Source: an uncultured Planctomycetota bacterium (lineage in GTDB: Bacteria; Planctomycetota; Planctomycetia; Pirellulales; Lacipirellulaceae). From it: DNA of 64,000 nucleotides. This document shows positions 836 through 58,560 of this stretch, in pieces. The first letter of the stretch is position 1; each line of letters starts with the position of its first letter. Location: the NCBI GenBank assembly GCA_963840025.1, contig CAWIXI010000019.1, positions 44,485 through 108,484 of the forward strand, given 5' to 3'. The notes under the pieces are model-generated. The model saw nothing but the letters and a program-made list of their open reading frames with translations, was not told the DNA's origin and did not search any database. A program made the translations under genes and the position numbers.

Positions 836-2521
836 ATGAAAAGACAATACGTCGGAATCATCCCATTTTTGCTAGAAGCAGTTTCAAAGCCGCGGCGGAG
901 AGGGGGACAGTCCCGTTTTCCTCGCAAGCTCGGAAAATTGGGACAGTCCCCGGCGGTTTTGAAACTGCTTCTAATCGGATTTGTTGCATTTGGTAGCTCG
1001 CTTCTGTTCGGATCGCCTGATGCTCTAGCGGCTGGAACCAACAGCCGTCCGAACATCGTGTTCATCTTCTCCGACGACCACGGCTACCAGGCGATCAGCG
1101 CCTACAACAAACGCTGATCGAAACGCCGAACATCGATCGGATCGCCGAGGAAGGGATGCGGTTCGACCGCTGCTACGTCACCAACTCACTCTGCGGACCG
1201 AGCCGCGCGGTCGTGCAGACCGGGAAGTACAGCCACAAGAACGGATTCTACAAAAATGGCGACAAGTTCGACGGCTCCCAGCCCACCATGCCCAAAATGC
1301 TTCAAGCCGTCGGCTATCAGACCGCGATCGTCGGCAAGTGGCACTTGGAAAGCGACCCCACAGGCTTTAACTACTGGAACGTCTTGCCGGGGCAGGGCGA
1401 GTATTACAACCCCGTCCTGATCGACAACGGCACGAAGTTGAAACACACGGGCTACGTCACCGATATCATCACCGATTTGGCGCTCAACTGGCTCAAGAAG
1501 AAGCGCGACCCCAAAAAGCCTTTCTTGCTGATGTATCAGAACAAGGCACCGCATCGCAGTTGGTTGCCGCCGATTCGCAAACTGCATCAGTTTGACGACC
1601 AGACAATTCCGCAGCCCCCCACATATTTCGACGACTACTCGCACCGCGCCAGCACGGCCCGCAGTCAGCGGATGGAGATTGCCCGCGATTTGCTTCCAGG
1701 CTCCGATTTGCGGATGTGGTTTCCCATGGATGAAACGGACGTTAAGAAAGATCCTTGGTGGAACCACATATTCAGTCAGTTGACACCTGCCGAGCAGGAA
1801 GCTTTTATTGCGGCCTACACGCCCAAAAACGACCGCCTGCGCGAGGCCAACCTCAACAGCCAACAACTCGCCAGTTGGAAATATCAGCGATTCATCAAGG
1901 ATTATCTCCGTTGCGTCGACGCGGTCGACGAGGGCGTCGGCCGGATCCTCGACTACCTCGACCAGAGCGGCCTGGCCGACAACACGATCGTCGTCTACAC
2001 CAGCGACCAAGGCGTCTTCCTGGGCGAGCACGGCTGGCTCGACAAACGCTGGATGTATGAACCATCATTGCGGACGCCGCTCTTGGTCCGCTGGCCAGGC
2101 AAAGTCAAGCCCGGCAGCGCAAGCGGCGACATTGTTTCCAATGTCGACTTCGCAGAGACGTTCTTGGACGTCGCTGTGCGCCGACATTCCGTCGGACATG
2201 CAGGGTCGCAGTCTGGTGCCGGTCCTCACGGGCCACACGCCGTCCGACTGGCGGAAGGACTTCTACTATCAGTACTACGAAGGCCTCAACGGCCCTCACC
2301 ACGTCCCGCGGATGTACGGCATCACCGACGGCCGCATGAAGCTCATCCACTATATACCTACCGGTGAGCAGGAGTTCTTCAATCTGGACGTCGACCCACT
2401 CGAGCTCGGCAAGAACTCCGAAGAGTATCTCAAAGAGCACCCCGAGGTGGAGACGCGATTGAAGCAACAACTCGCGTCGCTGCAGAACAAGCTGGAAGTC
2501 CCACCGGACCAATTGAAGTGA
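836..2521 (+). pseudogene. Cys-type S1 sulfatase (N-acetylglucosamine-6-sulfatase-like), frame broken twice (pseudogene or assembly indels)
   Basis: Three fragments. ORF 836..1117 has a signal peptide and [19 protein letters not shown]. The frame of ORF 1156..2367 has [36 protein letters not shown] (C-x-P-x-R FGly motif) and GKWHL. The frame of ORF 1808..2521 has [14 protein letters not shown]...FFNLDVDPLEL. Frame changes lie near 1105-1115 and 2160-2175. Confidence 0.85.
873..973. repeat. MITE-like palindromic element, copy 1 (97-bp body GAAGCAGTTTCAAA...TTTGAAACTGCTTC flanked by TA on both sides)
   Basis: Terminal inverted repeats TAGAAGCAGTTTCAAA(G/A)CCGC and two internal GGGAC(A/T)GTCCC palindromes. 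Its reverse complement matches 52963..53063 with 3 mismatches over 101 nt (manual alignment). It lies inside the 5' coding region of the sulfatase ORF starting at 836 and is stop-free in that frame. Confidence 0.75.
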
Positions 2522-11993: not shown

Positions 11994-13477
11994 ATGCAAA
12001 ACTCTGAGCCGGCTTACGCGATTGTCTTGGCCCTTGCTCTGGCGAGCTTCAGCTTTGCTGAGGAGGATCAGGCTGCGACAATTGCAGCGACGAATCACTC
12101 TGCCTCATGTCTTGATCCTGTTGGTCGACGATATGGGGTATGGAGACCCTGGTTGCTACAATCCCGAGTCGCGGATCTCGACGCCGAACATCGACTCTTT
12201 GGCACGAGACGGCATGCGGTTTGTCGACGCCCACGCGCCGGCTCCTCTCTGCCATACCTCGCGCTACGGCCTGTTGACGGGGCGATATCCCTTTCGGGCG
12301 GATGTTGGCCGGTGGCCCAAGCACGCCGCCATTGAATCGGGTCGAACCACAATCGCCTCGCTGCTGAAGTCACGCGGATACCACACGGCGATGGTCGGCA
12401 AATGGCACTTGGGCTTTGAAGAGGCCAGTTACGACGCTCCCTGGACCGGGGGGCCCGTAGACGTTGGCTTTGACTCCTTCTTTGGGATCCGCGCTTCGAC
12501 GGATATTCCTCCCTACTTTTATATTCGCGACAACCGAGTCGTTGCCCCGCCCACGCTGCCAATCGCGGCCCATCACAGTGCGGGCTGGTCGCCGATCCAG
12601 GGTGAATTCTGGCGGGGCGGGCTGATTGCCTCGGACATGAAGCTGGCGGATGCCTTGCCAACAATCACGGACGAAGCCGTTGCGGTGATACGCCAGCACG
12701 CCGCGAGCCTCCAAGAATGGCAAACGCCGCGTGCCGCTGATGCTGTACGTCGCATTGCCTGCGCCCACACCCCCTGGTTGCCGACGGCCAAATTCAACGG
12801 CGTAAGCAAAGTCGGCATGTACGGCGACTTCGTGATCGATGGTCGACGCCATGGTCGGTCGCGTGCTTGCCGCTCTGGAGGCCGCTAAGATGGCGGACGA
12901 CACGCTCGTGATCTTCACCTCCGACAACGGGCCTGTTTGGTATGACAGCGACGTGAAGCGGTTTGGCCATGATTCGGCCGGCGGATTGCGAGGCATGAAG
13001 GGCGATGCGTGGGAAGCCGGACATCGCATGCCCTTCATCGTGCGCTGGCCGCACAAGGTTGCTCCCGGTGCGGTCAGCCATCGGTTGGTTTGCTTCACCG
13101 ACGTGATGGCGACGCTGGCGAGCATCGTCGGCTACCGTCTGGCAGACGACGAAGGCCCGGACAGCATGGATTTTTCCGGAGCACTGCTAGGAAAGGAATC
13201 GCCCGTGGGAAGCGTCCGCACTTCGCTGGTGATGAAGTCGTCGGCCGGTCTGATGACCGTCCGCCACGGACAGTGGAAATTGATCGATGGACTAGGCTCG
13301 GGCGGGTTTTCCCAGCCCGCGAAGATCGAGCCGCAACCGGGTCAGCCCGCCGGTCAGTTGTACAACCTGGCGACCGATCTCGGTGAAACGAAGAACCTCT
13401 ACAGCGAACGCCCAGACATCGTCCGGCGTTTGAAAAAAATTCTTGCCTCGATCGAGCACGCCGAAAACGAGCGGTAG
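11994..13477 (+). pseudogene. S1 sulfatase with atypical C-H-T-S-R active-site motif, at least four frame breaks
   Basis: The signal peptide MQNSEPAYAIVLALALASFSFA is in the frame of ORF 11994..12335. LPHVLILLVDDMGYGDPGCYN...APLCHTSRYGLLTGRYP is in the frame of ORF 12022..12888. KNGKRRVPLMLYVALPAP is in a third frame, followed by HTPWLPTAKFNG. MVDAMVGRVLAALEAAKMADDTLVIFTSDNGP is in ORF 12839..13477. Breaks lie near 12095, 12705, 12768 and 12835. Confidence 0.8.
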
Positions 13478-20608: not shown

Positions 20609-21022
20609 ATGAAGAAATGGGTTGTCGCGCTTTGCGTTAGTGTCTCATTTGGTTTTTCGGGTTTGCTTGGTTGTGGATCGTCCGGGTTTTCGTCGACCGA
20701 GGGAGTCGTCACATTGGACGGCGAGCCCTTGGCGAACGCGACGGTCATGTTTCAATCGCCAAACATGCCGATGGCGACTGCCAAGACGAATCAGGACGGC
20801 AAGTACCGTGTCGAAACTGGCGGCACCAAGGGAATTAAGCCGGGGGAATACTCGGTCACTGTCGCGGCATATGCGAAAGGAAAGAATGGCGGCGAACGCG
20901 CACCGAATCTCATTATCCCCCAGCGATATCTTCAACCGGAGACTTCAGGTCTGAAGGCAGAAATCGGATCTGGGACGAACCGGGATGTCAATTTCGAGTT
21001 GGTTTCCACGCCGTCGAACTGA
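20609..21022 (+). CDS. small lipoprotein with carboxypeptidase-regulatory-like (transthyretin-like) domain; DUF1559 partner
   Basis: Intact 137-aa ORF with lipobox LLGC at the end of a signal peptide and [20 protein letters not shown]...[10 protein letters not shown]. It is a paralogue of 28525..28917 and 31648..32073. Confidence 0.75.
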
Positions 21023-21029
21023 GCATGCA

Positions 21030-22585
21030 ATGAATGCCTCGGGCCAATATTGCCGAAACGACCGTCCTTGCGAATCGCACCGAATCGTGCCGGCTTGGAA
21101 TTCAGTGATTGCGGCGCGTGTCGGTTTCGCGGTCGGCCTGTGCCTGTTTGCGTATCAGCCGGTGTTTGCCGCGGAGCAAGCCGGCCCGAGGCCGAACATT
21201 GTGTTCCTGATGACCGACGATCAGTGTTTCTATTCGCTAGGATGCTACGGCGTACGGGACGTGCAAACGCCCAATCTTGACCGATTGGCCGCGGACGGAG
21301 TGACGTTTGACAAGTATTATGTGACCACTGCTATTTGCATGGCCAGTCGTGCGACGGTCATGACAGGCCTAGTCGAGTATCGCACGGGTTGCAACTTCAC
21401 GCACGGTCCGTTGCTTCGCGAACACTGGAGCCGGTCGTACCCATTCCAACTGAGAAAGGCCGGCTATTTGACGGCATTCGCAGGCAAGTTCGGCTTTGAG
21501 GTTGCCGACAGTCCCCGGGGAACGGGCTCTCTGCCGAGCGAGGACTTTGATCACTGGGCTGGCGGTCCGGGACAGACGTCCTACAAAACCGCCGACAACC
21601 CGGCGCTGGCCAAGTATGCCGAGCAATTTCCTCACTCGACGTTGGCCTACGGTGCGTTCGGCAGCGATTTCATCCGCGATGCGGCGAAGCAGACATCGTC
21701 CCTTTTGCTTGTCCATCAGCTTCAAAGCCGCCCCATCGGCCAGCGACCCCGGACCCTCGCTTCGACGCGGTTTATGCGGGAAGCGTGTTCGCCAAGCCGG
21801 CCAACTTTGGCCGCCGAAACGGCGAACACTTTTCTCCGCAGAGTCGACAAGGCAGGCAGTACCAGCGCTTTGTGACGTGGCACTACAACGACGATTACAA
21901 CGGCGTCATGGCGACCTATTACCAGCAGGTCTACGGCGTCGATGTCGCGGTGGGAATGATTCGTCGTGCTCTGGAAGCGTCGGGCGCGGCGAAAAACACG
22001 GTGATCATATTCACGTCCGACAACGGATTTATGTGCGGTTCTCACGGGTATGGCTCGAAAGTGCTTCCTTATGAAGAGGCATCCCGCGTTCCGCTGATTG
22101 TCGTGGATCTTCGTAACTCGGAGAAGAACGTGGGGGGTCGTTGCGACGCTTTGTGCGGCAACGTCGACATAGCGCCCACCATTCTGGCCCTCGCGGGGAT
22201 CAAAGTGTCGGACGATTTGGATGGACAGAGCCTGTTGTCGCTAATCGACGATCCGACGTCATCGATTCATGAGTCGCTGCCGTTGATCAACGTGTGGGGG
22301 CCCGCGGCAGTTCATAGTCTGGCGGTCGTCACCAAGGACTGGAAGTACATCTACTGGCCGTACTCAGAGCGTGGTTTCGTCCCCTGTGAAGAACTATACA
22401 ACTTGGCGGACGATGCGCTGGAGCTTAAGGAACTTTCCCACGACCGGCGCTATGCCGACACCCTGCAACGGATGCACGCCATGTACGATCGAGAAGTGGA
22501 TCGGTGGAAGCAGATGACCGTTCACTACCACGGATATGAAAAGTACGGCACAGTTTTTGATCGTCGTTTGCGGTCGAGTGACTAG
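21030..22585 (+). pseudogene. Cys-type S1 sulfatase (C-M-A-S-R motif), two frame breaks
   Basis: [21 protein letters not shown]...[15 protein letters not shown] is in ORF 20985..21875. [12 protein letters not shown] is in the frame of ORF 21496..22074. [25 protein letters not shown]...IIFTSDNGFMCGSHG is in the frame of ORF 21785..22585. Breaks lie near 21690 and 21733 (C-run). Confidence 0.85.
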
Positions 22586-27207: not shown

Positions 27208-27368
27208 GATCGTGAGTCGGCAGCGGTTGGCTCGGGGGCGGTCGAAAGACGCATGGGGCAGCGCCCGAGCCAGTCGCGCCGGCTGCACGAAGCTGTCGCG
27301 ACCGGCGCGAATGGGGAACAGAGCGAGTTGTACCGGTTGATGACAGCTTGACGGCTGAGGGAGCGGTG

Positions 27369-28525
27369 ATGAAACGCAATTCGCTCACGGTTCGGGCTCC
27401 ACGTCGCTCATGCGGTTTCACGCTTATTGAGTTGTTGGTGGTGATCGCCATCATCGGCATCCTGGTCGCCTTGCTGCTGCCTGCGGTGCAGTCGGCGCGA
27501 GAAGCGGCACGCAGGACCCAGTGCGCGAACCAACTGCGGCAACTGGCGTTGGGATGCCTGACCTTCGAGTCGTCCCGCAAGTATCTCCCGCCCATCGCGG
27601 TCATGCGCCCCGGCATGAAGCCCTCGGAAAGTCATGCGGGCTACGACTTGATGTCGGAGGAAATCCTGGTCCGGAACGCCGAGAATAAGCGCGGCCACAG
27701 TTGGATCGTCGAGATTCTTCCTCAGATTGAAGAGCAGGGCCTCGCCGATCGCTACGACAAGACGGTCAGCCCGCTGCAGAACATTGTGGATAACCATTTC
27801 GAGATCGTGGACATTCCCGGACTCTATTGCCCGTCGCGGCGGCGGGGGGTCGAGTCACCGGATCAGCAATACATGCTGCTGACGTTCCAGGGGCCCGAAG
27901 AAGGGCCAAATCCTTTGTCCCAACTCAATCTGCCGCCTGTCGGCGGGACGGACTATGGGGCGGTGATCGGCGCCGGGAATTGCTACGACAATTTGGGTTA
28001 CAAGGGAATGTTCCTCGGGTACATCTGCGTGGGCGTAACCGGTGCGGCTGCGGGGCCGATGATGCCTGATCAGGAAGGAAGGGGAGCCAAGTTAAAGGCC
28101 ATCATCGACGGAGCGAGTCATACCATTCTGCTCGGCGAATTGCAGCGGCTTTGGGCCTCCAGCGACGACCCGCGTTTTCCTGGCAACGGGCGCGACGGGT
28201 ACCCCTCGGCGCGGAGTGTGGATGGCTGGCTCTTCGGCGGCAGCCCGACGAGTTTCGATGGTCAGATCTCCGTTACTTCGGACCTTGAAGAAAACCGATA
28301 TTTGGCCGGCGGCGTGAACTCGTGGTTCTTTGAGCACGCCGGCAGCGAGCACCCGGGCGGCGCCAATTCGCGTTCACTGATGGGTCGATACGCTTCCTCA
28401 GCGAGAATGCGGACCCACTGATCCTGATGGCGGAAACGACGCGAGGGGGTGGCGAATTGGAGGCCGGCGACCTTACAGCAACGCTCAGTTCGCTGTTCAC
28501 CACCGTAACGGGAGGGCGGCGATAG
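27369..28525 (+). pseudogene. DUF1559 / H-X9-DG pseudopilin-like protein, array copy 1, one frame break near the C-terminus
   Basis: [52 protein letters not shown]...[13 protein letters not shown]...EHPGGAN is in ORF 27348..28421. After a missing T near 28366-28372 the tail reads [31 protein letters not shown]...GGRR and stops at 28523-28525. Confidence 0.85.
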
Positions 28526-31648: not shown

Positions 31649-32073
31649 TGGGTGCCGCGAAGAACAGCCGCGGTTGGCGACATTGCTGCGTCGCATTGGT
31701 GGTATTCGCCGGCTGTCTGACCGTCGGCGGTTGCCGTACCGGCGCGGGCGACAGGCCGGACCTCGGCGAAGTCACTGGCGTGGTAACTCTCGATGGCGCG
31801 CCACTCCCGGATGCGAGCGTTTCATTCACCCAGCCTGGTTTCCGCTCGTCCGTCGGCAAGACTGACAGCCAAGGACGGTACGAACTGATTTACATCCGCG
31901 ACGTCAAAGGCGCCGCCGTCGGGACGCACGTCGTAAAGATCAAATTATTTAAGCAGAATGGGGGACAAGCGGACCAGCTACTTCCGAGCCGGTACAACTC
32001 CAAATCGGAACTCTCCCGAGAAGTCAAGCCCGGCCCAAACGTGTTCAACTTCGATCTAAAATCAAGTCCCTGA
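31648..32073 (+). CDS. small lipoprotein with carboxypeptidase-regulatory-like domain; DUF1559 partner
   Basis: Intact 141-aa ORF. Its GTG start overlaps the upstream TAG by 1 nt. It has a signal peptide ending LTVGGC and [48 protein letters not shown]. Confidence 0.75.
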
Positions 32074-33235
32074 TGGCGGAGCACCACGGCACAACGACAC
32101 TTTGCGGGGAAGCGATGAAAGAGTGCAATTCCGATCGATTTCGAGATACCGGCCGTCGTGGTTTCACGTTGATCGAGCTGTTGGTGGTAATCGCCATCAT
32201 TGGCATTCTCGTGGCGCTGCTATTACCTGCTGTCCAAGCCGCACGCGAGGCGGCCCGTCGCGCTCAATGTAAAAACAATCTCAAACAGCTCGGCATCGGT
32301 GCTTTAAATCACGAAAGCGCCTTCAAATTTTTGCCCACGGGCGGGTGGGGTTGGAAGTGGACAGGCGATCCCGACCGGGGCTATGGCTTGGATCAACCCG
32401 GCGGATGGTACTACAACATTTTGAAGTTCATTGAGGAAGGACCCATCCGTGACTTGGGCAAGGACGGCCAACCAGATGTGCTGACCCAACAGCAGATTGA
32501 CGGCACCTACGAAGCAGTCCAAACGGGAGTCAGTTGGTTTATGTGCCCGAGCCGTCGCGGCGCGGCGGTCTATCCTTTGGATCCGGCGACAGGCGGTTAT
32601 CTCACGGTGGGCAACAAAAAGCCGCCCGTCGTCGGGCGGAACGATTACGCTGCGAACACCGGCGACCGGTACAATGCAAGCACCTTGGCCAATACGGGAC
32701 CGGGCCTCCAAGGGAATCAGATTGTTAATCCCGACATCAGCAATTACGGCGCTAACCAGCGCACTTTGACGCGCCAGGACTCGGAAGAACGGCGGGTGTC
32801 GAAGGGGGTACGGGTGTGGTTCATGCATTTAGTATCATTAAGCTGGCACAAATCACCGACGGCGCATCGCACACGATTTTTGCCGGCGAGAAGTATATTC
32901 CTGCAGACAAGTACGACACCGGGTATGGCGATTTGAACCAGGGCAACGATCAGGGCTGGGATGAAGGCTGGGACATTGACAACTGTCGATGGACATTTCT
33001 CGCGCCTCGTCCCGATTCGTTTCGTTGGGTCGACGCAAGTGGCAACGACATCCCCGACACCAACAGCGACGGCTGGCTCAGATACCGTGCGTTTGGCTCG
33101 GCCCACCCCACTGGTTGCCAATTCGTGTTTGTCGATGGATCGGTGCATACCATTTCCTATGACGTGGACGAAGTTTTGTTCAAAAATCTGGGAAATCGAC
33201 AAGACGGCGAGCCGATTAACGATTCCGATTTGTAA
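32073..33235 (+). pseudogene. DUF1559 / H-X9-DG pseudopilin-like protein, array copy 4 (divergent paralogue), one frame break
   Basis: ATG 32073 overlaps the upstream TGA by 1 nt (alternative start ATG 32115). [47 protein letters not shown] is in ORF 32073..32936. [28 protein letters not shown]...AHPTGCQFVFVDGSVHTI (H-x9-DG) is in ORF 32816..33235. The break lies near 32775-32810. Confidence 0.8.
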
Positions 33236-50578: not shown

Positions 50579-52896
50579 ATGAACTCGTTATCGCGACGGT
50601 TGGTATTGAAACTGCTGGGAACTTACGCTGCCTGGTTTGGAATAGGTCCAGCGGTACGCACGTCGAACGCGGCGCCTGCGCCACAACGCGGCGCACCCCT
50701 GTGCGATTGGCGCAACATGCACGAGCGCGTCTGGCTCGGAGAGCAGTTTTGGGCGAATCCGATGGAAGATTGGCGCGTGGTTCAAGACGGTGCGGAGTGC
50801 CAGTCGCAAGGCGGCAATCGTTCCATTCACGTGCTGACGCATCAATTTGCAAATACCGGCGGCAGAATGGAAATGTCAGTCCGCATCAAAGAAGTCGAAA
50901 GGGGCCCGGCCCCCAGTGGCGCCGGCTTCCGCCTGGGAATTCGCAGCGACATCGACGAATACCGGAGCAATTGCTTTGCTAAGGGCGGCATCAATTGTGG
51001 AATTGTCGACGGCGCCCTTGTGATCGGTGAGGGCGGTAAACGATCACGCCTGGGACGTGACATAAATGAGTGCACGCTTCGCCTCGACGGCAAACCGACT
51101 GGCCAACCGTATGCGCTCGCACTCACGGCTGCTGATGCGTCCGGCAACAAGATTGGCGAAGTCAAAGATCTCGTACCCAGGGATGCGCTGCTCGGCAACG
51201 TCGCGCTGGTGAGCAACTTCAACCGAAAAACGAAAAGCGATGAAGGCTCACGGTATAGATTCAGCGATTGGACGATCGCCGGAGACGCTTTCGAGGTGAC
51301 CCCCTCGAACAAATTCGGCCCGCTCCTGTGGTCAATGTATTCGCTCAGCGACTCGCGCAGTGGCGAAGGCTTTGTCTTGAAGATGAGCGCACTGACGGGA
51401 CCATTGGGTGCGAAAGATAACAAGTCGATAGAACTCAGAATCAAACGCGACGGCAAATGGCACTCTCTCGGCGACGCCACGCTTGATGAGGACTGCTGGA
51501 CGGCTGTGTTTCGCATTCCTAATTGGGATGAGAGGGTCGAGACCCCTTACAAACTCATCTATTACCAGGCACATCGTGACGGGACGACGACCGTCTCGGA
51601 ACGTACCGGAACGATCAAGGCCAATCCGTCTGGACGCCCGTTTCGTTTGGCGCAATGACCTGCCAGAACGATTACGCCTTTCCGTACGAGCCCGTTGCCA
51701 AGAATTTACTGCGGCTCGATCCCGACATGCTCTACTTTTCCGGCGATCAGATCTATGAAACGCACGGCGGTTTTGGAATCATTCGCAAGCCGGCCGACCG
51801 AGCGATCCTCAACTACCTGCGAAAGTTTTATGAATTCGGCTGGGCGTTCGGAGAGGCGATGCGCAGTAGGCCCACGTTGTGCATTCCCGACGACCACGAC
51901 GTCTTTCAAGGCAATTTGTGGGGTGAAAGCGGCGAAAAAATTGGTCCGGGTCCAAAGGACGCAACTGGCGGCTATGAGGAGCCGGCGAAAATGGTCAATG
52001 TCGTGCATAAGACATGCGCCGGCCACCACCCCGACTACTATGACCCGATGCCATGCAAGCAAGGCATCAGTGTTTACTACGGAGAGGTCGTCTACGGGGG
52101 CGTCGGATTTGCAATCGTCGCGGATCGGCAGTTCAAGAGTGGTCCGGAGCACGTGCACACCGGTAGCGGTCGCCCCGACCACGTGATTGACGCCGACATC
52201 GATTGTTCCAAGCTCGACAAACCAGGCCTTAGCTTATTGGGCAAGCGCCAGGAGAACTTTCTGGATCATTGGGTAAACGACTGGCGCGGCCACAACATGA
52301 AGGTGCTGCTGAGCCAGACCGTGTTTGCGGGCGTGGCCACCCACCACGGCACTTACGACGGCTTCCTGCGTGCCGACCTCGATTCGGGTGGTTGGCCCCA
52401 GACCCCGCGGAACAAAGTCATCCGCATCGTCCGCCAGGGATTGCCTTTACACATCAACGGCGACCAGCATCTCGCTTCGCTCGTCCAATACGGCGTAGAC
52501 AAGCAGCGCGACAGTTGTTGGTCGTTTTGCACGCCGGCGATCGCCGTGGGCTACCCACGTTGGTGGCGGCCCGACGAAGTCGGCATCCAGTTCAAAGGAC
52601 GCCCGAAGCACGGGCTGCCGAATACCGGCGAGTATCTCGATACCTTTGGCAACAAAGCCTACGTGTATGCGGTAGGAAACCCCGAAGTCGGTACGAAGCA
52701 CAATCGTTACCAGTTAGCGCATCAAAAGGGAAGCGGATTTGGACTGGTGACGATCGACACTCGCGCAAAGACCTACACGTGCGAGGCCTTCCGATTCCTC
52801 GTCGATGCTACCGACGGTGATTTGAGCAATCAATTTCCCGGTTGGCCTTTGACGATCCGCCAGCAAGAAAATGCCGGTCATAATGTGATCGGATAA
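50579..52896 (+). pseudogene. TAT-exported PhoD-like metallophosphatase (alkaline phosphatase D family) with jelly-roll N-terminal domain; split at 51655 by a probable 1-nt deletion
   Basis: ORF 50579..51658 has an SRRLVLK signal and a PhoD_N-like end ...[20 protein letters not shown] 51655..52896 begins [11 protein letters not shown]...FSGDQIYE...[11 protein letters not shown]. The stop falls inside the conserved RFA-x-SCQ strand that links PhoD_N to the metallophosphatase domain. Confidence 0.7.
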
Positions 52897-52943: not shown

Positions 52944-54548
52944 ATGAAGTACCTTGTGCAACTAGAAGCAGTTTCAAAACCGCCGGGGACTGTCCCCATT
53001 TTCCGAGCTTGCGAGGAAAATGGGACTGTCCCCCTCTCCGCCGCGGTTTTGAAACTGCTTCTAATTGTCGCCACCGTTTTGAGCTTTGCTGAAACGCTGT
53101 GGGCGGATTCGCTTGCCGGCAGCCGCCCGAACATCATCGTCGTCATGACGGATGATCAGGGCTACCCTCCGGTCGGCCGACTGGGGCATCCGTGGATACA
53201 CACGCCAAACCTGGACGCGCTCTACGACAAGAGCACGCGCTTTACCCACTTTTTTGTCAGTCCCACGTGTGCGCCGACACGATCCGCCCTGATGACCGGC
53301 CGCTATCCGTTTGAGAACGGCGTCACGCACACGATCCTGGAGCGAGAGCGTCTGGCGTTAGACGCAGTCACGTTGCCGCAAATCTTAAAGTCGGCCGGCT
53401 ATACAACCGCCATTTTCGGCAAATGGCATTTGGGCGATGAGGATGCTTACCAGCCTGGCAACCGCGGCTTCGACGAATCATTTATTCATGGCGCGGGAGG
53501 TATCGGCCAGAGTTACGATTGTTCCTGTGCGGATGCACCCAACAATACATACTTTGATCCGGTGATTCGACACAATGGGACGTTCGTAAAGACCCACGGA
53601 TACTGCACCGATATCTTCTTTGATGCAGCTTTGGGATGGATTAAACAACATCGGCAGACGAAGGACGGAGATTCCCCCCAGCCGTTTTTCGTTTACATCC
53701 CCACAAATGCACCGCACAATCCGTTCATCGCTCCGAAGAAAAATGCGGACCGCTTCAAAAAGCTCGGATTCGACGAAGAGACCGCTGGCTTCTACGGCAT
53801 GATCGAGAATATCGATGAAAACATGGGACGGCTGCTTGCCAAGCTCGACGAATGGCAGCTCTTCGACAACACGATTGTCATTTTCATGTCCGACAATGGG
53901 ATGAGCCGTGGAGCGATGGCCGATCGGGGGCAACCGTTGGGTCAGCTGGCGGACGGCACGCCGTTGATGTTCTATAATGCCCACATGAAAGGACTCAAAG
54001 GGTCGGTTGACGAGGGAGGGGTTCGCGTTCCATTCTTCATCCGTTGGGACGGGCGACTCGCGGCCAATCGAGATATCGATCAAATTGCAGCTCATATCGA
54101 CCTGTTGCCGACTCTCGCAGAACTCGCGGGTGCGGAGATGCCCAAAGCGCGGGTCGATGGACGCAGCCTGGTCCCGTTACTGCAAAATCTCGCTAGTCCG
54201 TGGAAGGACCGATTTTTGTTCACCCATCGAGGCCGCTGGCCGTTGCATGCAAATCCAGACGATTTCAAATGGACCGGGTTTTCCGTGCGCAATCAGCGCT
54301 TTCGATTGGCGGGAACCGATCAGCTGTACGACATGCTGCGGGACCCGGGACAAACAGTGAACGTGATTGGCCATCATCCTGAGGTCGTCGACGACATGAA
54401 GTCCGCCTACGAGAGGTTTTGGGACGAAGCACGGCCTCTGATGGTTAACGAAAACGTCCCTTTGTCCACCACACGGCCATATCACGTCGCGTACCGCAAG
54501 CAAGAGAAAACGAGCGGAATCCCCGATTGGAAGAAACCGAGTCTGTAG
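52944..54548 (+). CDS. Cys-type S1 arylsulfatase; N-terminal region contains MITE-like element copy 2
   Basis: Intact 534-aa ORF with SRPNIIVVMTDDQGYPPVG, VSPTCAPTRSALMTGRYP, GKWHLG and FMSDNG. The signal-peptide h-region AAVLKLLLIVATVLSFAETLWA starts inside the repeat at 52963..53063. Confidence 0.9.
   Translation: MKYLVQLEAVSKPPGTVPIFRACEENGTVPLSAAVLKLLLIVATVLSFAETLWADSLAGSRPNIIVVMTDDQGYPPVGRLGHPWIHTPNLDALYDKSTRFTHFFVSPTCAPTRSALMTGRYPFENGVTHTILERERLALDAVTLPQILKSAGYTTAIFGKWHLGDEDAYQPGNRGFDESFIHGAGGIGQSYDCSCADAPNNTYFDPVIRHNGTFVKTHGYCTDIFFDAALGWIKQHRQTKDGDSPQPFFVYIPTNAPHNPFIAPKKNADRFKKLGFDEETAGFYGMIENIDENMGRLLAKLDEWQLFDNTIVIFMSDNGMSRGAMADRGQPLGQLADGTPLMFYNAHMKGLKGSVDEGGVRVPFFIRWDGRLAANRDIDQIAAHIDLLPTLAELAGAEMPKARVDGRSLVPLLQNLASPWKDRFLFTHRGRWPLHANPDDFKWTGFSVRNQRFRLAGTDQLYDMLRDPGQTVNVIGHHPEVVDDMKSAYERFWDEARPLMVNENVPLSTTRPYHVAYRKQEKTSGIPDWKKPSL
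52963..53063. repeat. MITE-like palindromic element, copy 2 (inverted relative to copy 1)
   Basis: TAGAAGCAGTTTCAAAACCGCCGGGGACTGTCCCCATTTTCCGAGCTTGCGAGGAAAATGGGACTGTCCCCCTCTCCGCCGCGGTTTTGAAACTGCTTCTA equals the reverse complement of 873..973 apart from 3 substitutions. It is TA-flanked and stop-free in the sulfatase frame. Confidence 0.75.
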
Positions 54549-56948: not shown

Positions 56949-57361
56949 CGACTGTCGACCCGGTAAATCGTTCCACGCGCAAGCTGCATTGCGGCTTTGC
57001 ACGCGAATTATGGCACATCGTTGCGCATCACAACTCGTCGTCCGCCAAAGACTAAGTCACTACAACAACAAGCGAAGTAAATCTTGCCTAAATCGTGCCG
57101 ATGAAGCAACGTGTCAAAGCATCGCAACTAGTTTTCTGGCAAGGACTTATGTCTGCCGCAGATCGTGTTCGGCGCGAGCGGTCTGGGAACCTATGCGAGG
57201 CAGGTTTTGATCAGACGAAACGTAGAGTCTCGCGCACATCAAGGCGGAGTTGGCGATCGAATCCGACGAGGATTCAGAACTGGCCATGGCGCCGATCCGA
57301 AAAAGTGCGGCCAAGACATCGTCAGGACAAACACTCAACGAGAAGCAAGTCGTCGAAGCTT

Positions 57362-57389
57362 TGAGGTGGACCCCAAAAACTGGACAGCC
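57362..57389 (+). repeat. IS3-family element left inverted repeat
   Basis: It starts with TG. 22 of 28 positions match the reverse complement of 58847-58874. Confidence 0.8.
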
Positions 57390-57442
57390 TGATAAGATGG
57401 ACGTTCCCCCTGGAGGCAGGGGTCGATCAGGAGGTCTGGAGG

Positions 57443-57730
57443 ATGTCGAGGAAGCGACGGGCGTTTGGCTCGGCGTTCAAGGCGAAGGTGGCCTTGGCGG
57501 CGTGCCGTGGCGAGAAGACGACGGCCCAACTGGCGTCGGAGTACGGGGTCCATGCCAGCCAGGTGACGGCCTGGAAGAAGCAACTCCTGGCGGGGGCCGT
57601 CGGTCTGTTCGAGGATGGCCGCGGCAAGCGTGCCGAGCAATCCACGAACGAAGAAGAGCTCTACGAGCAGATCGGCCGGCTGAAAATGGAAGTCGAGTGG
57701 TTGAAAAAAAAATCTGCCGAGCTCACCTGA
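57443..57730 (+). CDS. IS3-family transposase OrfA (HTH DNA-binding subunit)
   Basis: 95-aa ORF MSRKRRAFGSAFKAKVALAACRGEKTTAQLASEYGVHASQVTAWKKQLL...LYEQIGRLKMEVEWLKKK, with an HTH plus leucine-zipper-like end typical of IS3 OrfA. Confidence 0.85.
   Translation: MSRKRRAFGSAFKAKVALAACRGEKTTAQLASEYGVHASQVTAWKKQLLAGAVGLFEDGRGKRAEQSTNEEELYEQIGRLKMEVEWLKKKSAELT
57704..57712 (+). other. A9 run = candidate programmed ribosomal frameshift (slippery) site of the IS3 transposase
   Basis: AAAAAAAAA sits at the 3' end of orfA (codons L-KKK-S). The DDE-domain ORF continues in the -1 frame. This is the established IS3-family OrfAB mechanism. Confidence 0.6.
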
Positions 57731-58560
57731 AGGAATGCGACGATGGATCGAACCGGAACACCCCGAGTTCTCGATCGCTCAACAGTGCGCTGGTGGGACT
57801 GCCGCGGTCGACGTGGTACTACCGCCCGGCCGGCGAATCGGCGGAGAATCTCGCGTTGATGCGCTCGATCGACGAGCAGTATTTGCGTACTCCGTTTTAC
57901 GGCAGCCGCAAGCTCGCGGAACTCTTGGGCGTCAATCGCAAGCGGGTGCAGCGGCTGATGCGGCGGATGGGGATCGAGGCCATTTATCCCCAGCGACGCA
58001 CTACCTGGCCCGCCGCCGGCCACCAGATTTACCCGTATTTGCTGCGGAATGTGGCGGTCCTGCGGCCCGACCAGGTGTGGGCCAGCGACATCACGTACGT
58101 GCCGCTACGGCACGGGTTTTTGTACCTCGTGGCAGTGATGGACTGGTACAGCCGCTACGTCGTCTCGTGGCGATTGTCCAACACGCTCAGCGGCAGTTTC
58201 TGCAGCGAGGCGCTCGACGCAGCGCTCTGGTTGGCGACGCCGGAGATCTTCAACAGCGATCAAGGGAGCCAATTCACGGCCACGGCGTTCACGTCGCGGC
58301 TCGAATCGCGTGGCGTGGCGATCAGCATGGATGGCCGCGGTCGGGCGATCGACAACGTGCTGGTCGAGCGGCTCTGGCGGAGCATGAAGTACGAGGAAGT
58401 GTACCTCAAGGACTATGCCGACGGCTGGGAGGCGGAAGCGTCGCTCTCGGCGTATTTCCACTTTTACAATCACCAGCGGATTCACCAAGCGCTCGGCTAT
58501 CGCACGCCGGCCGACGTATACGCCGAGCGTCGCACGACGCAAAACACGACCGCTTGTTGA
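57705..58560 (+). CDS. IS3-family transposase OrfB (DDE integrase domain); N-terminal conserved block is out of frame with the catalytic part
   Basis: The catalytic part is in the frame of ORF 57250..58560: LVGLPRSTWYYRP...YGSRKLAELLGVNRKRVQRLMRRMGI...WASDITYV...LVAVMDWYSRYVV...NSDQGSQFT...NVLVERLWRSMKYEEVY. The expected preceding block NLPSSPEGMRRWIEPEHPEFSIAQQCA lies in the frame of ORF 57735..58835, so there is an extra indel near 57790. Confidence 0.75.

What the first reader, a model, noticed from the sequence alone, without database searches (positions are those of the whole stretch)
52963..53063. Second, inverted copy of the palindromic MITE, again in-frame at a sulfatase N-terminus
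Seen: this copy is the reverse complement of copy 1 (3 substitutions), yet it is again stop-free in the host frame. It contributes LEAVSKPPGTVPIFRACEENGTVPLSAAVLKLLLI to an otherwise intact 534-aa sulfatase. The internal peptide differs completely from copy 1 (basic PRRRGGQSRFPRKLGKLGQSP versus acidic/neutral PPGTVPIFRACEENGTVPLS), while both termini are identical. Inference: this reflects insertion-site or selection bias toward the n-region of signal peptides, where sequence is weakly constrained. The element end may even donate a usable hydrophobic segment. Two independent in-frame insertions in the same gene family and the same position class are unlikely to be coincidence if copy number is low.
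Basis: partly seen in the sequence, partly recalled or inferred. Interest (0 to 1): 0.65.

Follow-up and report, generated by a model that had tools for sequence, protein, structure and literature searches.

The report
Mobile mini-element inserted in sulfatase signal peptide
A 97-base mobile DNA element of soil Pirellulales bacteria has recently jumped into the export signal of a sulfatase gene without breaking the reading frame. Export signals and stop codons are the only places in genes where this mostly between-gene element persists.

Summary
Window 52965-53061 is a 97-nt palindromic element flanked by TA/TA. It is the reverse complement of the copy at 875-971, with 3 substitutions. It sits at codon 7 of an intact 534-aa sulfatase.

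Two relatives lack exactly these 99 nt. One is a 501-aa orthologue that starts MKYRVLLIVATVLSFAETLWA. So this is a real, recent insertion into the signal-peptide coding region.

The element is a MITE. It has 19-nt terminal inverted repeats and a TA duplication, and it prefers CTAG targets. About 920-bp IS5-family insertion sequences, which look like the IS427 group, carry the same ends.

"In frame" follows automatically from 97+2 = 99 nt, and 4 of the 6 frames are stop-free.

I classified 110 copies from Pirellulales MAGs and metagenomes:
- 75 are intergenic.
- 18 lie exactly on a stop codon, where TA plus the element's G rebuilds TAG.
- 7 are in frame in signal or leader peptides of unrelated secreted proteins; an eighth turned up in a protein search.
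- At most 2 lie deep inside genes.

It is not sulfatase-specific: the window holds about 12 sulfatase genes.

Whether the altered protein is still exported is inferred, not shown. This is a new MITE family of a known kind.

The parts
52965..53061 (-). MITE copy 2, 97 nt. It is in the orientation opposite to copy 1.
   Evidence: Two empty-site alleles lack exactly this element plus one TA.
52963..52964 (.). Left copy of the TA target-site duplication. It forms positions 2-3 of Leu codon CTA, codon 7 of the sulfatase.
   Evidence: TA flanks 78 of 110 family copies on the left and 74 of 110 on the right.
53062..53063 (.). Right copy of the TA target-site duplication.
   Evidence: The skipped stretch in the empty allele is 99 nt, which is 97 + 2.
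52965..52983 (+). Left terminal inverted repeat, GAAGCAGTTTCAAAACCGC. It encodes EAVSKP in the host frame.
   Evidence: The ends of the IS5-family elements L109, L072 and L129 are identical over 17-21 nt.
53043..53061 (+). Right terminal inverted repeat, GCGGTTTTGAAACTGCTTC. It encodes AVLKLLL in the host frame.
53049..53051 (+). In-frame TTG inside the right repeat. It is a possible alternative start that would give MKLLLIVATVLSFAETLWA.
   Evidence: It lies inside the 19-bp terminal stem of the predicted hairpin, so independent initiation there is disfavoured (inference).
52986..52997 (.). Internal palindrome GGGACTGTCCCC, first copy.
   Evidence: In loci L010 and L048, an IS4-family element is inserted at this motif in other copies.
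53022..53033 (.). Internal palindrome GGGACTGTCCCC, second copy.
52944..54548 (+). Host gene, a 534-aa sulfatase. It is 501 aa without the insert.
   Evidence: The orthologue P0003 is 501 aa and 93% identical.
52944..52964 (+). Original start codon and first 7 codons (MKYLVQL), now separated from the rest of the signal peptide.
53064..53105 (+). Remainder of the original signal peptide (IVATVLSFAETLWA), up to the inferred cleavage site before DSLAGSRPN.
   Evidence: Homologues have signal peptides of 20-28 aa before (D/E)SLAGS(R/K)PNI. The cleavage site is inferred.
875..971 (+). MITE copy 1, 97 nt, flanked by TA at 873-874 and 972-973. It lies in the signal peptide of a second sulfatase (MKRQYVGIIPFLL|element|[20 protein letters not shown]).
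   Evidence: Sulfatase domains lie downstream. The left junction is present in a 100%-identical contig of run X2.
836..2521 (+). Host sulfatase of copy 1, split into three ORFs in the window by frameshifts.
   Evidence: An extra T after position 1111 in contigs from X1, X2 and X3 restores the frame.

Best explanation
What it is. The feature is a copy of a non-autonomous transposable element (a MITE). It is 97 bp long, with 19-bp terminal inverted repeats around a hairpin-rich core. The family is abundant in soil and sediment Pirellulales.

How it moves. A DDE transposase supplied in trans mobilises it. The best candidate is an IS5-family insertion sequence of about 920 bp with two overlapping ORFs, which looks like the IS427 group and has the same ends. 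Insertion is at TA, preferably C-TA-G, and duplicates the TA.

What happened here. The element landed in the Leu codon CTA at position 7 of a sulfatase signal peptide. It added 99 nt, or 33 codons, in one of its four stop-free frames.

Why copies sit where they do. The element inserts wherever CTAG/TA occurs, but copies survive only where they do little harm:
- between genes;
- exactly on a stop codon, where TA plus the element's first G rebuilds TAG;
- in cleavable N-terminal signal or leader peptides.

Why signal peptides tolerate it. In coding DNA, CTAG is read mostly as CTA|Gnn, which is a hydrophobic codon. This places such hits in hydrophobic cores and in the frame that reads EAVSKP...AVLKLLL. 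In that frame the outgoing repeat supplies K-LLL, which restores a positive n-region and a hydrophobic core ahead of the untouched cleavage site.

What is inferred. The preprotein is probably translated from the original ATG with a 37-residue n-region, exported and cleaved to the normal mature enzyme.

Shown: the identity of the element, the TA duplication, the empty sites, the census, and the rule that coding copies add a multiple of 3 nt. Inferred: which transposase moves it, that the protein is still exported, and which start codon is used.
For: Element anatomy
- Terminal repeats, TA flanks and hairpin are seen.

Family
- I found 110 unique full copies, mostly 97-100 nt or 60 nt.
- TA flanks 78 of 110 copies on the left and 74 of 110 on the right. 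The commonest context is cTA..TAg.

Empty sites
- A contig of run X3 joins 52965 to 53065 and skips exactly 99 nt.
- The JGI contig L191 has the same PhoD-sulfatase gene order. It encodes the 501-aa protein P0003 (93% identity), which starts MKYRVLLIVATVLSFAETLWA.

Candidate partner
- L109:202-1118, L072:220-1143 and L129:102-1028 share 17-21 nt of the terminal repeat; L109 and L072 are flanked by TA on both sides, L129 only on the right (left flank GA).
- They carry a DUF4096 ORF and a DDE_Tnp_1 ORF, and hit NCBIfam transpos_IS5_3.
- L129 has a MITE directly next to the insertion sequence.
- Published IS427-group elements are 830-865 bp, make 2-bp repeats and have two frameshifted ORFs (PMC3281130).

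Census
- Of 110 copies, 75 are intergenic, 18 lie on a stop codon, 7 are in frame in signal or leader peptides, and 2 are deep internal.
- Target availability is 49-66% in gene bodies and 6.5-6.8% in the first 30 codons.
- The binomial test of N-terminal against gene-body copies gives p about 3e-4.

Frame preservation
- All 7 coding copies add 99 or 102 nt. Only 38 of 110 copies overall add a multiple of 3 ((0.345)^7 about 6e-4).
- An eighth case is the lipoprotein P0002 on L192.

Hosts and signal-peptide features
- Host proteins are unrelated: two sulfatases, a DUF1559 protein with an N_methyl prepilin motif, a Golvesin_C/Amidase_3/fn3 protein, a HEAT-like pair, an unknown protein and a lipoprotein.
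- All 8 inserts have net charge of 0 or more.
- In 7 of the 8, the longest hydrophobic run after the insert is still the original core next to the cleavage site, at least 12 residues long. The exception is the lipoprotein P0002/L192: read from its original start the longest run lies upstream of the insert, and the 12-residue run ending at the lipobox appears only in the TTG-start reading.

Start codon
- The TTG in the repeat lies inside a 19-bp stem.
Against: - No signal-peptide predictor, transcript data or proteome data were available (one search found no RNA runs). Export and start-codon use are therefore untested.
- The candidate partner shares only the terminal repeat with the MITE, not internal sequence.
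- The partner was found on metagenome contigs, not shown in the window's genome or in the MITE-rich MAG.
- The census rests on a home-made codon-usage gene finder. Signal peptides were recognised by eye and by hydropathy.
- A hairpin of -59 kcal/mol starting 21 nt after the ATG could depress expression.
- The insertion is polymorphic and young. Its persistence could reflect too little time for selection among about 12 paralogous sulfatases, rather than tolerance.
Confidence: 0.75

Rival explanations
1. The insertion has impaired or inactivated the sulfatase, for example through failed export or a translation block by the hairpin. It persists only because it is recent and the genome has many redundant sulfatases. 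On this view it is a nearly neutral loss, not a tolerated insertion.
For: - The insertion is polymorphic among close relatives.
- About 12 sulfatase genes lie in 64 kb.
- The hairpin is very stable.
- The host of copy 1 has frameshifts in the window.
Against: - All 7 to 8 copies in signal peptides add a multiple of 3 nt and are stop-free from the original start. The family-wide rate of such lengths is about 35%. That pattern is not expected if these genes were already dead.
- The rest of ORF 52944-54548 is intact.
- One copy-1 frameshift (the missing T after 1111) is absent from three short-read contigs. Other window genes show homopolymer indels typical of assembly error.
Confidence: 0.15
2. 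After insertion, translation starts at the TTG inside the outgoing terminal repeat. This gives a new compact signal peptide (MKLLLIVATVLSFAETLWA). The upstream 35 codons are then just 5' leader.
For: - The TTG-AAA-CTG-CTT frame yields M-K-LLL followed by the host hydrophobic core in all 6 frame-A cases.
- In L013, the N-terminus without the element lacks a charged n-region, while the TTG form has one.
Against: - The TTG is buried in the 19-bp terminal stem, and no Shine-Dalgarno-like motif precedes it.
- If this start were used, nothing would require a multiple-of-3 length or an open frame back to the old ATG, yet all cases have both.
- No out-of-frame copy in a signal peptide rescued by the TTG was seen among 110 copies.
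- The frame-C case (L043) and the prepilin case (L053) cannot use this TTG.
Confidence: 0.12
3. The transposase actively targets signal-peptide DNA or 5' gene ends, for example through transcription-coupled or structure-dependent targeting. The bias would then be an insertion-site bias rather than survivorship.
For: - 37 of 110 copies lie within 100 nt upstream of a predicted start, and 7 to 11 lie within the first codons.
- Independent insertions in opposite orientations occur in signal peptides of homologous proteins: the two window sulfatases, and L013 with L086.
Against: - Insertions in the first 30 codons (6.4%) match CTAG/TA availability (6.5-6.8%). Only gene bodies are depleted.
- Stop-codon hits (16% observed against 2-5% available) and 3'-proximal intergenic hits are equally prominent.
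- CTAG preference together with NTA codons being Leu, Ile or Val explains the hydrophobic-core location.
- Intergenic spacers are short, so any intergenic copy lies near a gene end.
Confidence: 0.08
4. This is an annotation artefact. The true start of the sulfatase lies downstream of the element, so the MITE is in the 5' untranslated region and the in-frame peptide is never made.
For: - Many family copies do lie 10-100 nt upstream of true starts, with spurious upstream ORF extensions.
- 4 of 6 frames are open.
Against: - The empty-site orthologue P0003 starts at the same ATG and runs straight into IVATVLSFAETLWA.
- Downstream of the element there is no start codon that would leave a signal peptide.
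- All close homologues have signal peptides of 20-28 aa before SLAGS(R/K)PNI.
Confidence: 0.02

Closest known systems
MITEs mobilised by IS5-family, IS427-group insertion sequences
   Same: - Short (97 nt), non-coding, with terminal repeats of 19 nt and a 2-bp (TA) target duplication.
- Candidate partner elements of about 920 bp have the same ends and two overlapping ORFs (DUF4096 and DDE_Tnp_1; NCBIfam transpos_IS5_3).
- Published IS427-group elements are 830-865 bp, with inverted repeats of 13-21 bp, 2-bp direct repeats and a programmed frameshift (PMC3281130).
   Different: - Only the terminal repeat is shared with the insertion sequence. The hairpin-rich core is unrelated, so this is not a simple deletion derivative.
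- The partners are somewhat longer, at 917-927 bp.
- The host clade (Pirellulales) and this repeat sequence did not turn up in the literature I searched.
Rickettsia palindromic elements (RPEs) and other in-frame intragenic MITEs (ERIC, BOX, QMITE1, Anabaena MITEs)
   Same: Palindromic repeats that insert into ORFs in frame and without stops, adding a peptide segment to an otherwise intact protein (review PMC10969869).
   Different: - RPEs lie mostly inside ORFs of varied metabolic genes, with no clear repeat ends, target duplication or transposase partner.
- Here about 68% of copies are intergenic and 16% lie on stop codons.
- Surviving coding copies are confined to cleavable signal or leader peptides, so the mature protein is probably unchanged.
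Correia elements of Neisseria (from my own knowledge, not tested here)
   Same: Elements of about 100-150 bp with terminal inverted repeats and a TA duplication. They are high in copy number, mostly close to gene ends, and form RNA hairpins.
   Different: - The sequence and host are unrelated.
- Functions documented for Correia elements (promoters, IHF site, RNase III processing) were not found or not testable here. There was no sigma-70-like hit and no significant orientation bias (23:13).
IS630 / Tc1-mariner-type elements (CTAG target, TA duplication)
   Same: Same target logic: a preference for CTAG with duplication of the central TA.
   Different: No IS630-type (DDE_3) element with these ends was found. 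The only full-length elements with matching repeats encode IS5-family transposases.
REP / REPIN elements mobilised by RAYT transposases
   Same: Short, abundant, mostly extragenic palindromes.
   Different: There is no GTAG or CGTC head and no tyrosine-transposase association. This element has true terminal repeats and a TA duplication (PMC3733652).

Membership tests
MITE (non-autonomous DNA transposon) | Terminal inverted repeats | tested here: met
   Both window copies have perfect 19-nt repeats. The pattern matches 4 times against 0.06 expected by chance.
MITE (non-autonomous DNA transposon) | Target-site duplication, confirmed by an empty site | tested here: met
   TA lies on both sides. 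Two empty alleles lack exactly 97+2 = 99 nt. TA flanks about 70% of 110 copies.
MITE (non-autonomous DNA transposon) | Small size with no transposase gene | tested here: met
   The element is 97 nt. Family members are 55-131 nt.
MITE (non-autonomous DNA transposon) | Many dispersed copies, polymorphic between strains | tested here: met
   - 110 unique copies in the sampled loci.
- At least 23 copies in one MAG.
- Depth of 100-200x over the element against 3-5x for the flanks.
- Presence/absence polymorphism at 52965.
MITE (non-autonomous DNA transposon) | An autonomous element with the same ends in the same genome | tested here: inconclusive
   IS5-family elements with matching repeats were found on metagenome contigs (L072, L109, L129), and one lies next to a MITE (L129). 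None was found in the window or in the MITE-rich MAG MFD06714.bin.2.12.
IS5 family, IS427-group-type element or derivative | 2-bp direct repeat and inverted repeats of 13-21 bp | tested here: met
   TA duplication and 19-nt repeats. Reference values come from PMC3281130.
IS5 family, IS427-group-type element or derivative | Partner transposase belongs to the IS5 family, as two overlapping ORFs | tested here: met
   L109 orfA has DUF4096 (98 bits) and orfB has DDE_Tnp_1. Each half scores about 104 bits against NCBIfam transpos_IS5_3, whose whole-protein cut-off is 110. The two halves cover model positions 2-110 and 132-258.
IS5 family, IS427-group-type element or derivative | That transposase actually mobilises the MITE | not testable with these tools
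   This needs a transposition assay. Only the terminal repeat is shared.
IS630 / Tc1-mariner-derived MITE | Cognate IS630-type (DDE_3) transposase element with the same repeats | tested here: not met
   All repeat pairs 141-4000 nt apart in 1.04 Mb of loci enclose either IS5-family elements or an IS4-family element nested in a MITE.
RPE-like coding palindromic element | In-frame, stop-free insertion in ORFs | tested here: met
   Eight copies are open from the host start, through the element, into the host protein.
RPE-like coding palindromic element | Most copies reside inside ORFs | tested here: not met
   75 of 110 copies are intergenic and 18 lie on stop codons.
REP / REPIN | GTAG or CGTC head and a RAYT partner | tested here: not met
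   The ends read GAAGCAG, there is a TA duplication, and the candidate partner is a DDE insertion sequence.
Functional Sec-type signal peptide after insertion | Positive n-region, hydrophobic core of at least about 10 residues, intact cleavage region | tested here: inconclusive
   Only hydropathy and charge were computed. The n-region is 37 aa with net charge +1, the core is LLLIVATVLSFA (12 aa), and the cleavage region ETLWA|DS is unchanged. No SignalP run or experiment was possible.
Described Rfam RNA family | A match at the family's gathering score | tested here: not met
   Only sub-threshold hits to generic hairpin (miRNA) models, 19-22 bits against cut-offs of 47-98.

The most novel reading that the evidence does not exclude
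The ends of the element may have been shaped by selection to be compatible with coding sequence.
- TA plus G rebuilds a TAG stop codon.
- The repeat reads K-LLL in the frame that CTA|G targets impose.

This would let the MITE colonise the very large secretome of Planctomycetes (sulfatases, DUF1559 proteins). Occasionally it could donate a new start codon, n-region and hydrophobic core, turning downstream ORFs into secreted proteins or changing how they are exported.

Candidates are L013, where the N-terminus without the element has no charged n-region, and the independent hits in opposite orientations in homologous proteins.
Probability: 0.15. Interest if true: 0.65.

Novelty: new member of a known kind. 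Interest (0 to 1): 0.4.

Why it matters
- It documents an apparently undescribed, abundant MITE family in soil and sediment Pirellulales, with a plausible IS5-family partner.
- It gives a simple rule for where such an element can live inside genes: on stop codons that it regenerates, and in cleavable signal or leader peptides whose hydrophobic core it rebuilds.
- For annotation, 33-residue EAVSKP...AVLKLLL or RSSFKTA...GFETAS segments at N-termini, and ORFs that run upstream through the element, should be recognised as element-derived. They break assemblies and mislead start-codon calling and signal-peptide prediction in Planctomycetes MAGs.
- It offers natural pairs of alleles with and without the element, for testing how much n-region extension a Sec signal peptide tolerates.
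- It is not a new kind of system.

Tried and rejected
1. IS630-type origin. I suspected this first because of the CTAG/TA target. I dropped it because the only full-length elements with these ends are IS5-family.
2. The 1666-bp repeat-bounded units in L010 and L048 as the parent. These are an IS4-family element (transpos_IS4_1) with its own repeats, nested in the GGGACTGTCCC palindrome of a MITE with an 11-bp duplication. They are not the parent.
3. A protein-database census using the four element-encoded peptides joined together. It gave only 2 hits at E of 1e-3 or better, one of them the window's own product. The other, P0002, proved to be an eighth signal-peptide case.
4. An exact look-up of the 534-aa product found no contig. 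The window's genome is not in the genome collection.
5. RNA evidence for the start site: no RNA runs were found.
6. Rfam: only sub-threshold miRNA-like hairpin hits.
7. Sigma-70 promoter scan: none. There was one weak terminator-like hit inside the repeat, within chance expectation.
8. Frame bias of long ORFs read outward from the repeats: frames A and C were similar (about 14 against 10), which is uninformative because of spurious ORFs in 57% GC DNA.
9. Orientation bias relative to the downstream gene: 23:13, not significant.
10. A close orthologue of the copy-1 sulfatase, to show its empty site: the best hit is only 65% identical. Homologues merely confirm signal peptides of 22-35 aa.
11. 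Sulfatase specificity: rejected.
Full report
**1. Checking the observation**

Window 52965-53061 is a 97-nt element bounded by perfect 19-nt inverted repeats, GAAGCAGTTTCAAAACCGC and GCGGTTTTGAAACTGCTTC. It contains two copies of the palindrome GGGACTGTCCCC and an inner A/T-rich stem. TA flanks it on both sides.

The repeat pattern occurs four times in the window, twice at each copy, against 0.06 expected by chance. An alignment shows that the copy at 875-971 is the reverse complement with three substitutions. Either strand folds into one long hairpin (-57 to -59 kcal/mol, z -7.6 to -9.2).

ORF 52944-54548 runs through the element. It encodes a 534-aa protein with Sulfatase and SGSH_C domains. 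So is the contrast between the two copies' inserts: net charge +8 for copy 1 and 0 for copy 2.

**2. It is a true insertion into the signal peptide**

Removing the element and one TA gives MKYLVQL-IVATVLSFAETLWA|DSLAGSRPN, a classical signal peptide. Two independent empty sites confirm this reconstruction.

- A 705-nt contig in soil-metagenome run X3 is about 98% identical to 53065-53698. It joins 52965 directly to 53065, skipping exactly 99 nt. Its junction reads CAACTAG|TTGTCG, which is a CTAG target.
- The closest database homologue, P0003, is 93% identical and 501 aa long, which is 534 minus 33. It begins MKYRVLLIVATVLSFAETLWADSLAGSRPN.
- Its JGI contig (L191) has the same PhoD-sulfatase gene order. 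It aligns base for base with the window except for the missing element.

More distant homologues all have signal peptides of 20-28 aa before (D/E)SLAGS(R/K)PNI. The idea that the element lies in a 5' untranslated region is therefore rejected.

Copy 1 sits in the same way in MKRQYVGIIPFLL|element|[20 protein letters not shown]|[10 protein letters not shown]. Its homologues have signal peptides of 22-35 aa before RPNI, but no close orthologue exists to show an empty site.

**3. What the element is**

Scanning one genome per species with the repeat found the family almost only in Pirellulales and Planctomycetota MAGs. One MAG, MFD06714.bin.2.12, holds at least 23 copies. The window's own genome is not in that collection.

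I extracted 110 unique full copies.

- Lengths: 99 nt (31 copies), 98 (17), 60 (15), 100 (14), 97 (8). A few are about 130 nt, with a different core between the same repeats.
- TA flanks 78 of 110 copies on the left and 74 of 110 on the right.
- The commonest flanking context is cTA...TAg (20 copies), then cTA...TAa (11, including both window copies).

So the duplication is TA and the preferred target is CTAG. Depth over the element in runs X3 and X4 is 100-200x, against 3-5x for the flanks.

Three elements of about 920 bp have ends identical to the MITE over 17-21 nt; two of them (L109, L072) are flanked by TA on both sides, while L129 has GA on its left: L109:202-1118, L072:220-1143 and L129:102-1028. 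They carry two overlapping ORFs, DUF4096 and DDE_Tnp_1, and hit NCBIfam transpos_IS5_3 over both halves. L129 has a MITE immediately beside the insertion sequence.

These properties match the IS427 group of the IS5 family as tabulated in PMC3281130: 830-865 bp, inverted repeats of 13-21 bp, 2-bp direct repeats and a frameshifted transposase. Only the terminal repeat is shared with the MITE, so mobilisation by this transposase is inferred.

The 1666-bp repeat-bounded units in L010 and L048 are a different thing. They are an IS4-family element nested in the MITE's GGGACTGTCCC palindrome, with an 11-bp duplication. Rfam has no family for the hairpin.

**4. Why "in frame and stop-free" needs no special explanation**

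The element plus one TA is 99 nt, so this 97-nt variant can never shift the frame.

With TA flanks, four of its six frames are open. The closed frame on each strand is the one in which TA plus the element's G reads TAG.

Both window copies use the phase in which TA forms codon positions 2-3. I call this frame A; it reads EAVSKP...AVLKLLL. NTA codons encode only Leu, Ile or Val.

In my crude gene calls, CTAG inside ORFs is read as CTA|Gnn in 108 of 136 cases. The target preference alone therefore steers coding hits into hydrophobic stretches and into frame A.

**5. Census of where copies lie**

I trained a codon-usage score on long ORFs from the same loci. It separates the sulfatase frame cleanly (+0.17 against about -0.5). 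I then restored each empty site in silico and classified the 110 copies.

| Class | Copies |
|---|---|
| Intergenic, within 100 nt upstream of a predicted start | 37 |
| Intergenic, within 100 nt downstream of a stop | 18 |
| Intergenic, other or at a contig end | 20 |
| Exactly on a stop codon | 18 |
| In frame in a signal or leader peptide | 7 |
| Within 15 codons of a predicted start, but probably 5' UTR on inspection | 4 |
| Within 30 codons of a 3' end | 4 |
| Deep internal, in weakly supported ORFs | 2 |

For the stop-codon class, the native TAG or TAA supplies the TA, and the element's G rebuilds TAG. The protein is unchanged.

Target availability in the same DNA looks very different.

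| Site type | Intergenic | Stop codon | First 30 codons | Gene body |
|---|---|---|---|---|
| CTAG | 39% | 5% | 6.5% | 49% |
| TA | 25% | 2% | 7% | 66% |

Gene bodies are therefore depleted at least ten-fold and stop codons are enriched three- to seven-fold. The first 30 codons carry about the expected share. Comparing N-terminal with gene-body copies gives a binomial p of about 3e-4.

**6. The signal-peptide class**

The seven in-frame copies from the census, plus one more, are these.

- The two window sulfatases.
- L086: MIRLANRSTRLLLGLFL|element|VLAAVGAAVSAWPSPARA.
- L013: a homologue of the L086 protein, with the element in the opposite orientation, so an independent hit.
- L022: MMQCFPRAVRVLL|element|VSSVSLIA..., in a Golvesin_C/Amidase_3/fn3 protein.
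- L043: MNSPDFL|element|SNQIGRILLAIFISASFVL, in frame C.
- L053: MFPSNLA|element|[14 protein letters not shown], in a DUF1559 protein. The element sits in the prepilin-type leader just before the N_methyl motif.
- P0002 on L192, found by the peptide search: a lipoprotein, MHTSRNIALGYLSGLL|element|LTVVAGC.

All of these add 99 or 102 nt and are open from the host's start codon. Only 38 of 110 copies overall add a multiple of three.

All eight inserted peptides have net charge of 0 or more. In seven of them the longest hydrophobic run after the insert is still the original core next to the cleavage site, at least 12 residues long. The exception is the lipoprotein, where that holds only if translation starts at the TTG. 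In frame A the repeat's K-LLL replaces the displaced N-terminal part of the core.

These hosts are unrelated families, and none of about 240 homologues of the two sulfatases carries an element-derived peptide. The window contains about 12 sulfatase genes among roughly 50. Two sulfatase hosts in one window is therefore unremarkable.

**7. Mechanism, with its status**

Shown:
- It is a MITE with a TA duplication.
- It inserted recently and is polymorphic between related strains.
- Surviving copies are confined to intergenic DNA, stop codons and leader peptides.
- Copies in coding sequence preserve the frame.

Inferred:
- The IS5-family transposase moves the element.
- Purifying selection, rather than targeting, produces the distribution.
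- The sulfatase is still made and exported.

On the start codon, I favour the original ATG at 52944, for three reasons.
- The hairpin begins 21 nt downstream of that ATG.
- The alternative TTG (53049-53051) is buried in the 19-bp terminal stem.
- A TTG start would not require the open frame and the multiple-of-3 length seen in every case.

No RNA data exist to test this. No signal-peptide predictor was available.

**8. Comparison with known systems, and novelty**

In-frame, stop-free intragenic MITEs are well known. Examples are the Rickettsia palindromic elements, ERIC, BOX, QMITE1 and the Anabaena MITEs (review PMC10969869). TA-duplicating MITEs close to gene ends are also known, for example Correia elements (from my own knowledge).

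The papers I searched describe no MITE in Planctomycetes with these ends. They also do not mention recurrent insertion into signal peptides, but that search was limited.

I therefore classify this as a new member of a known kind. Its mildly novel points are the regeneration of stop codons and the rebuilding of signal peptides.

**9. Caveats**

- Gene calls come from a home-made scorer, and signal peptides were judged by eye and by hydropathy.
- Copies were sampled by requiring one perfect repeat, and the metagenome scan was truncated.
- Several window genes are split by single-base indels, which look like assembly errors. One is a missing G in a GGG run at 51649, seen by comparison with L191. 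Another is a missing T after 1111, seen by comparison with three short-read contigs. The apparent decay of the copy-1 host gene should therefore not be over-interpreted.

Noticed in passing
window 1111; 51649; 12022-13477; 20985-22585: Several genes are split by single-base indels.
- A T after 1111 is present in contigs from three runs but missing in the window.
- A G is missing from a GGG run at 51649, which splits a PhoD gene that is a single 772-aa ORF in L191.
- Two more sulfatases are in two pieces each.

This looks like homopolymer or indel error in a long-read assembly, rather than true pseudogenes.
   Followed up: partly
L010:758-2423 and L048:3589-5255: A roughly 1.59-kb IS4-family element (NCBIfam transpos_IS4_1, 188 bits) with its own repeats (AATACTGTTCGGCACGC...) is inserted in the GGGACTGTCCC palindrome of a MITE copy, with an 11-bp duplication. 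It does this at two different genomic sites in one MAG, and the two copies are 99% identical. Either it targets that palindrome specifically, or the composite moves on the MITE's ends.
   Followed up: partly
18 loci, for example L051:2995, L083:4313, L168:1813, L170:3470: 16% of family copies sit exactly on the TA of a host stop codon. The element's first G regenerates TAG, so the host protein is unchanged. This is a three- to seven-fold excess over target availability.
   Followed up: yes
L058:1718-1847, L059:748-876, L147, L129:1031-1160; 15 copies of 60 nt, for example L009:566-625: The same 19-nt repeats bound at least three unrelated cores. One is the 97-100-nt form, one is a 60-nt form with a single hairpin, and one is a roughly 130-nt form with a different GC-rich palindrome. 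This suggests repeated capture or creation of MITEs on one transposase's ends.
   Followed up: no
window 57250-58560: An IS3-family insertion sequence: an HTH_Tnp_1 orfA at 57443-57730, and rve integrase-core domains in the overlapping long ORF. It is unrelated to the MITE.
   Followed up: partly
window 836-54548: The window is a sulfatase-rich island. About 12 sulfatase genes give phmmer hits to the 534-aa query. It also holds DUF1559/N_methyl prepilin-like genes (27348-28421, 32073-32936). This is typical of Pirellulales polysaccharide-degradation loci.
   Followed up: partly
L013:443-542 and L086:1001-1097: Homologous secreted proteins in two different organisms each carry the MITE at the same position of the signal peptide, but in opposite orientations. 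The hits are therefore independent. This parallels the window's sulfatase pair and hints at a recurrent CTA-G hotspot in hydrophobic cores.
   Followed up: partly
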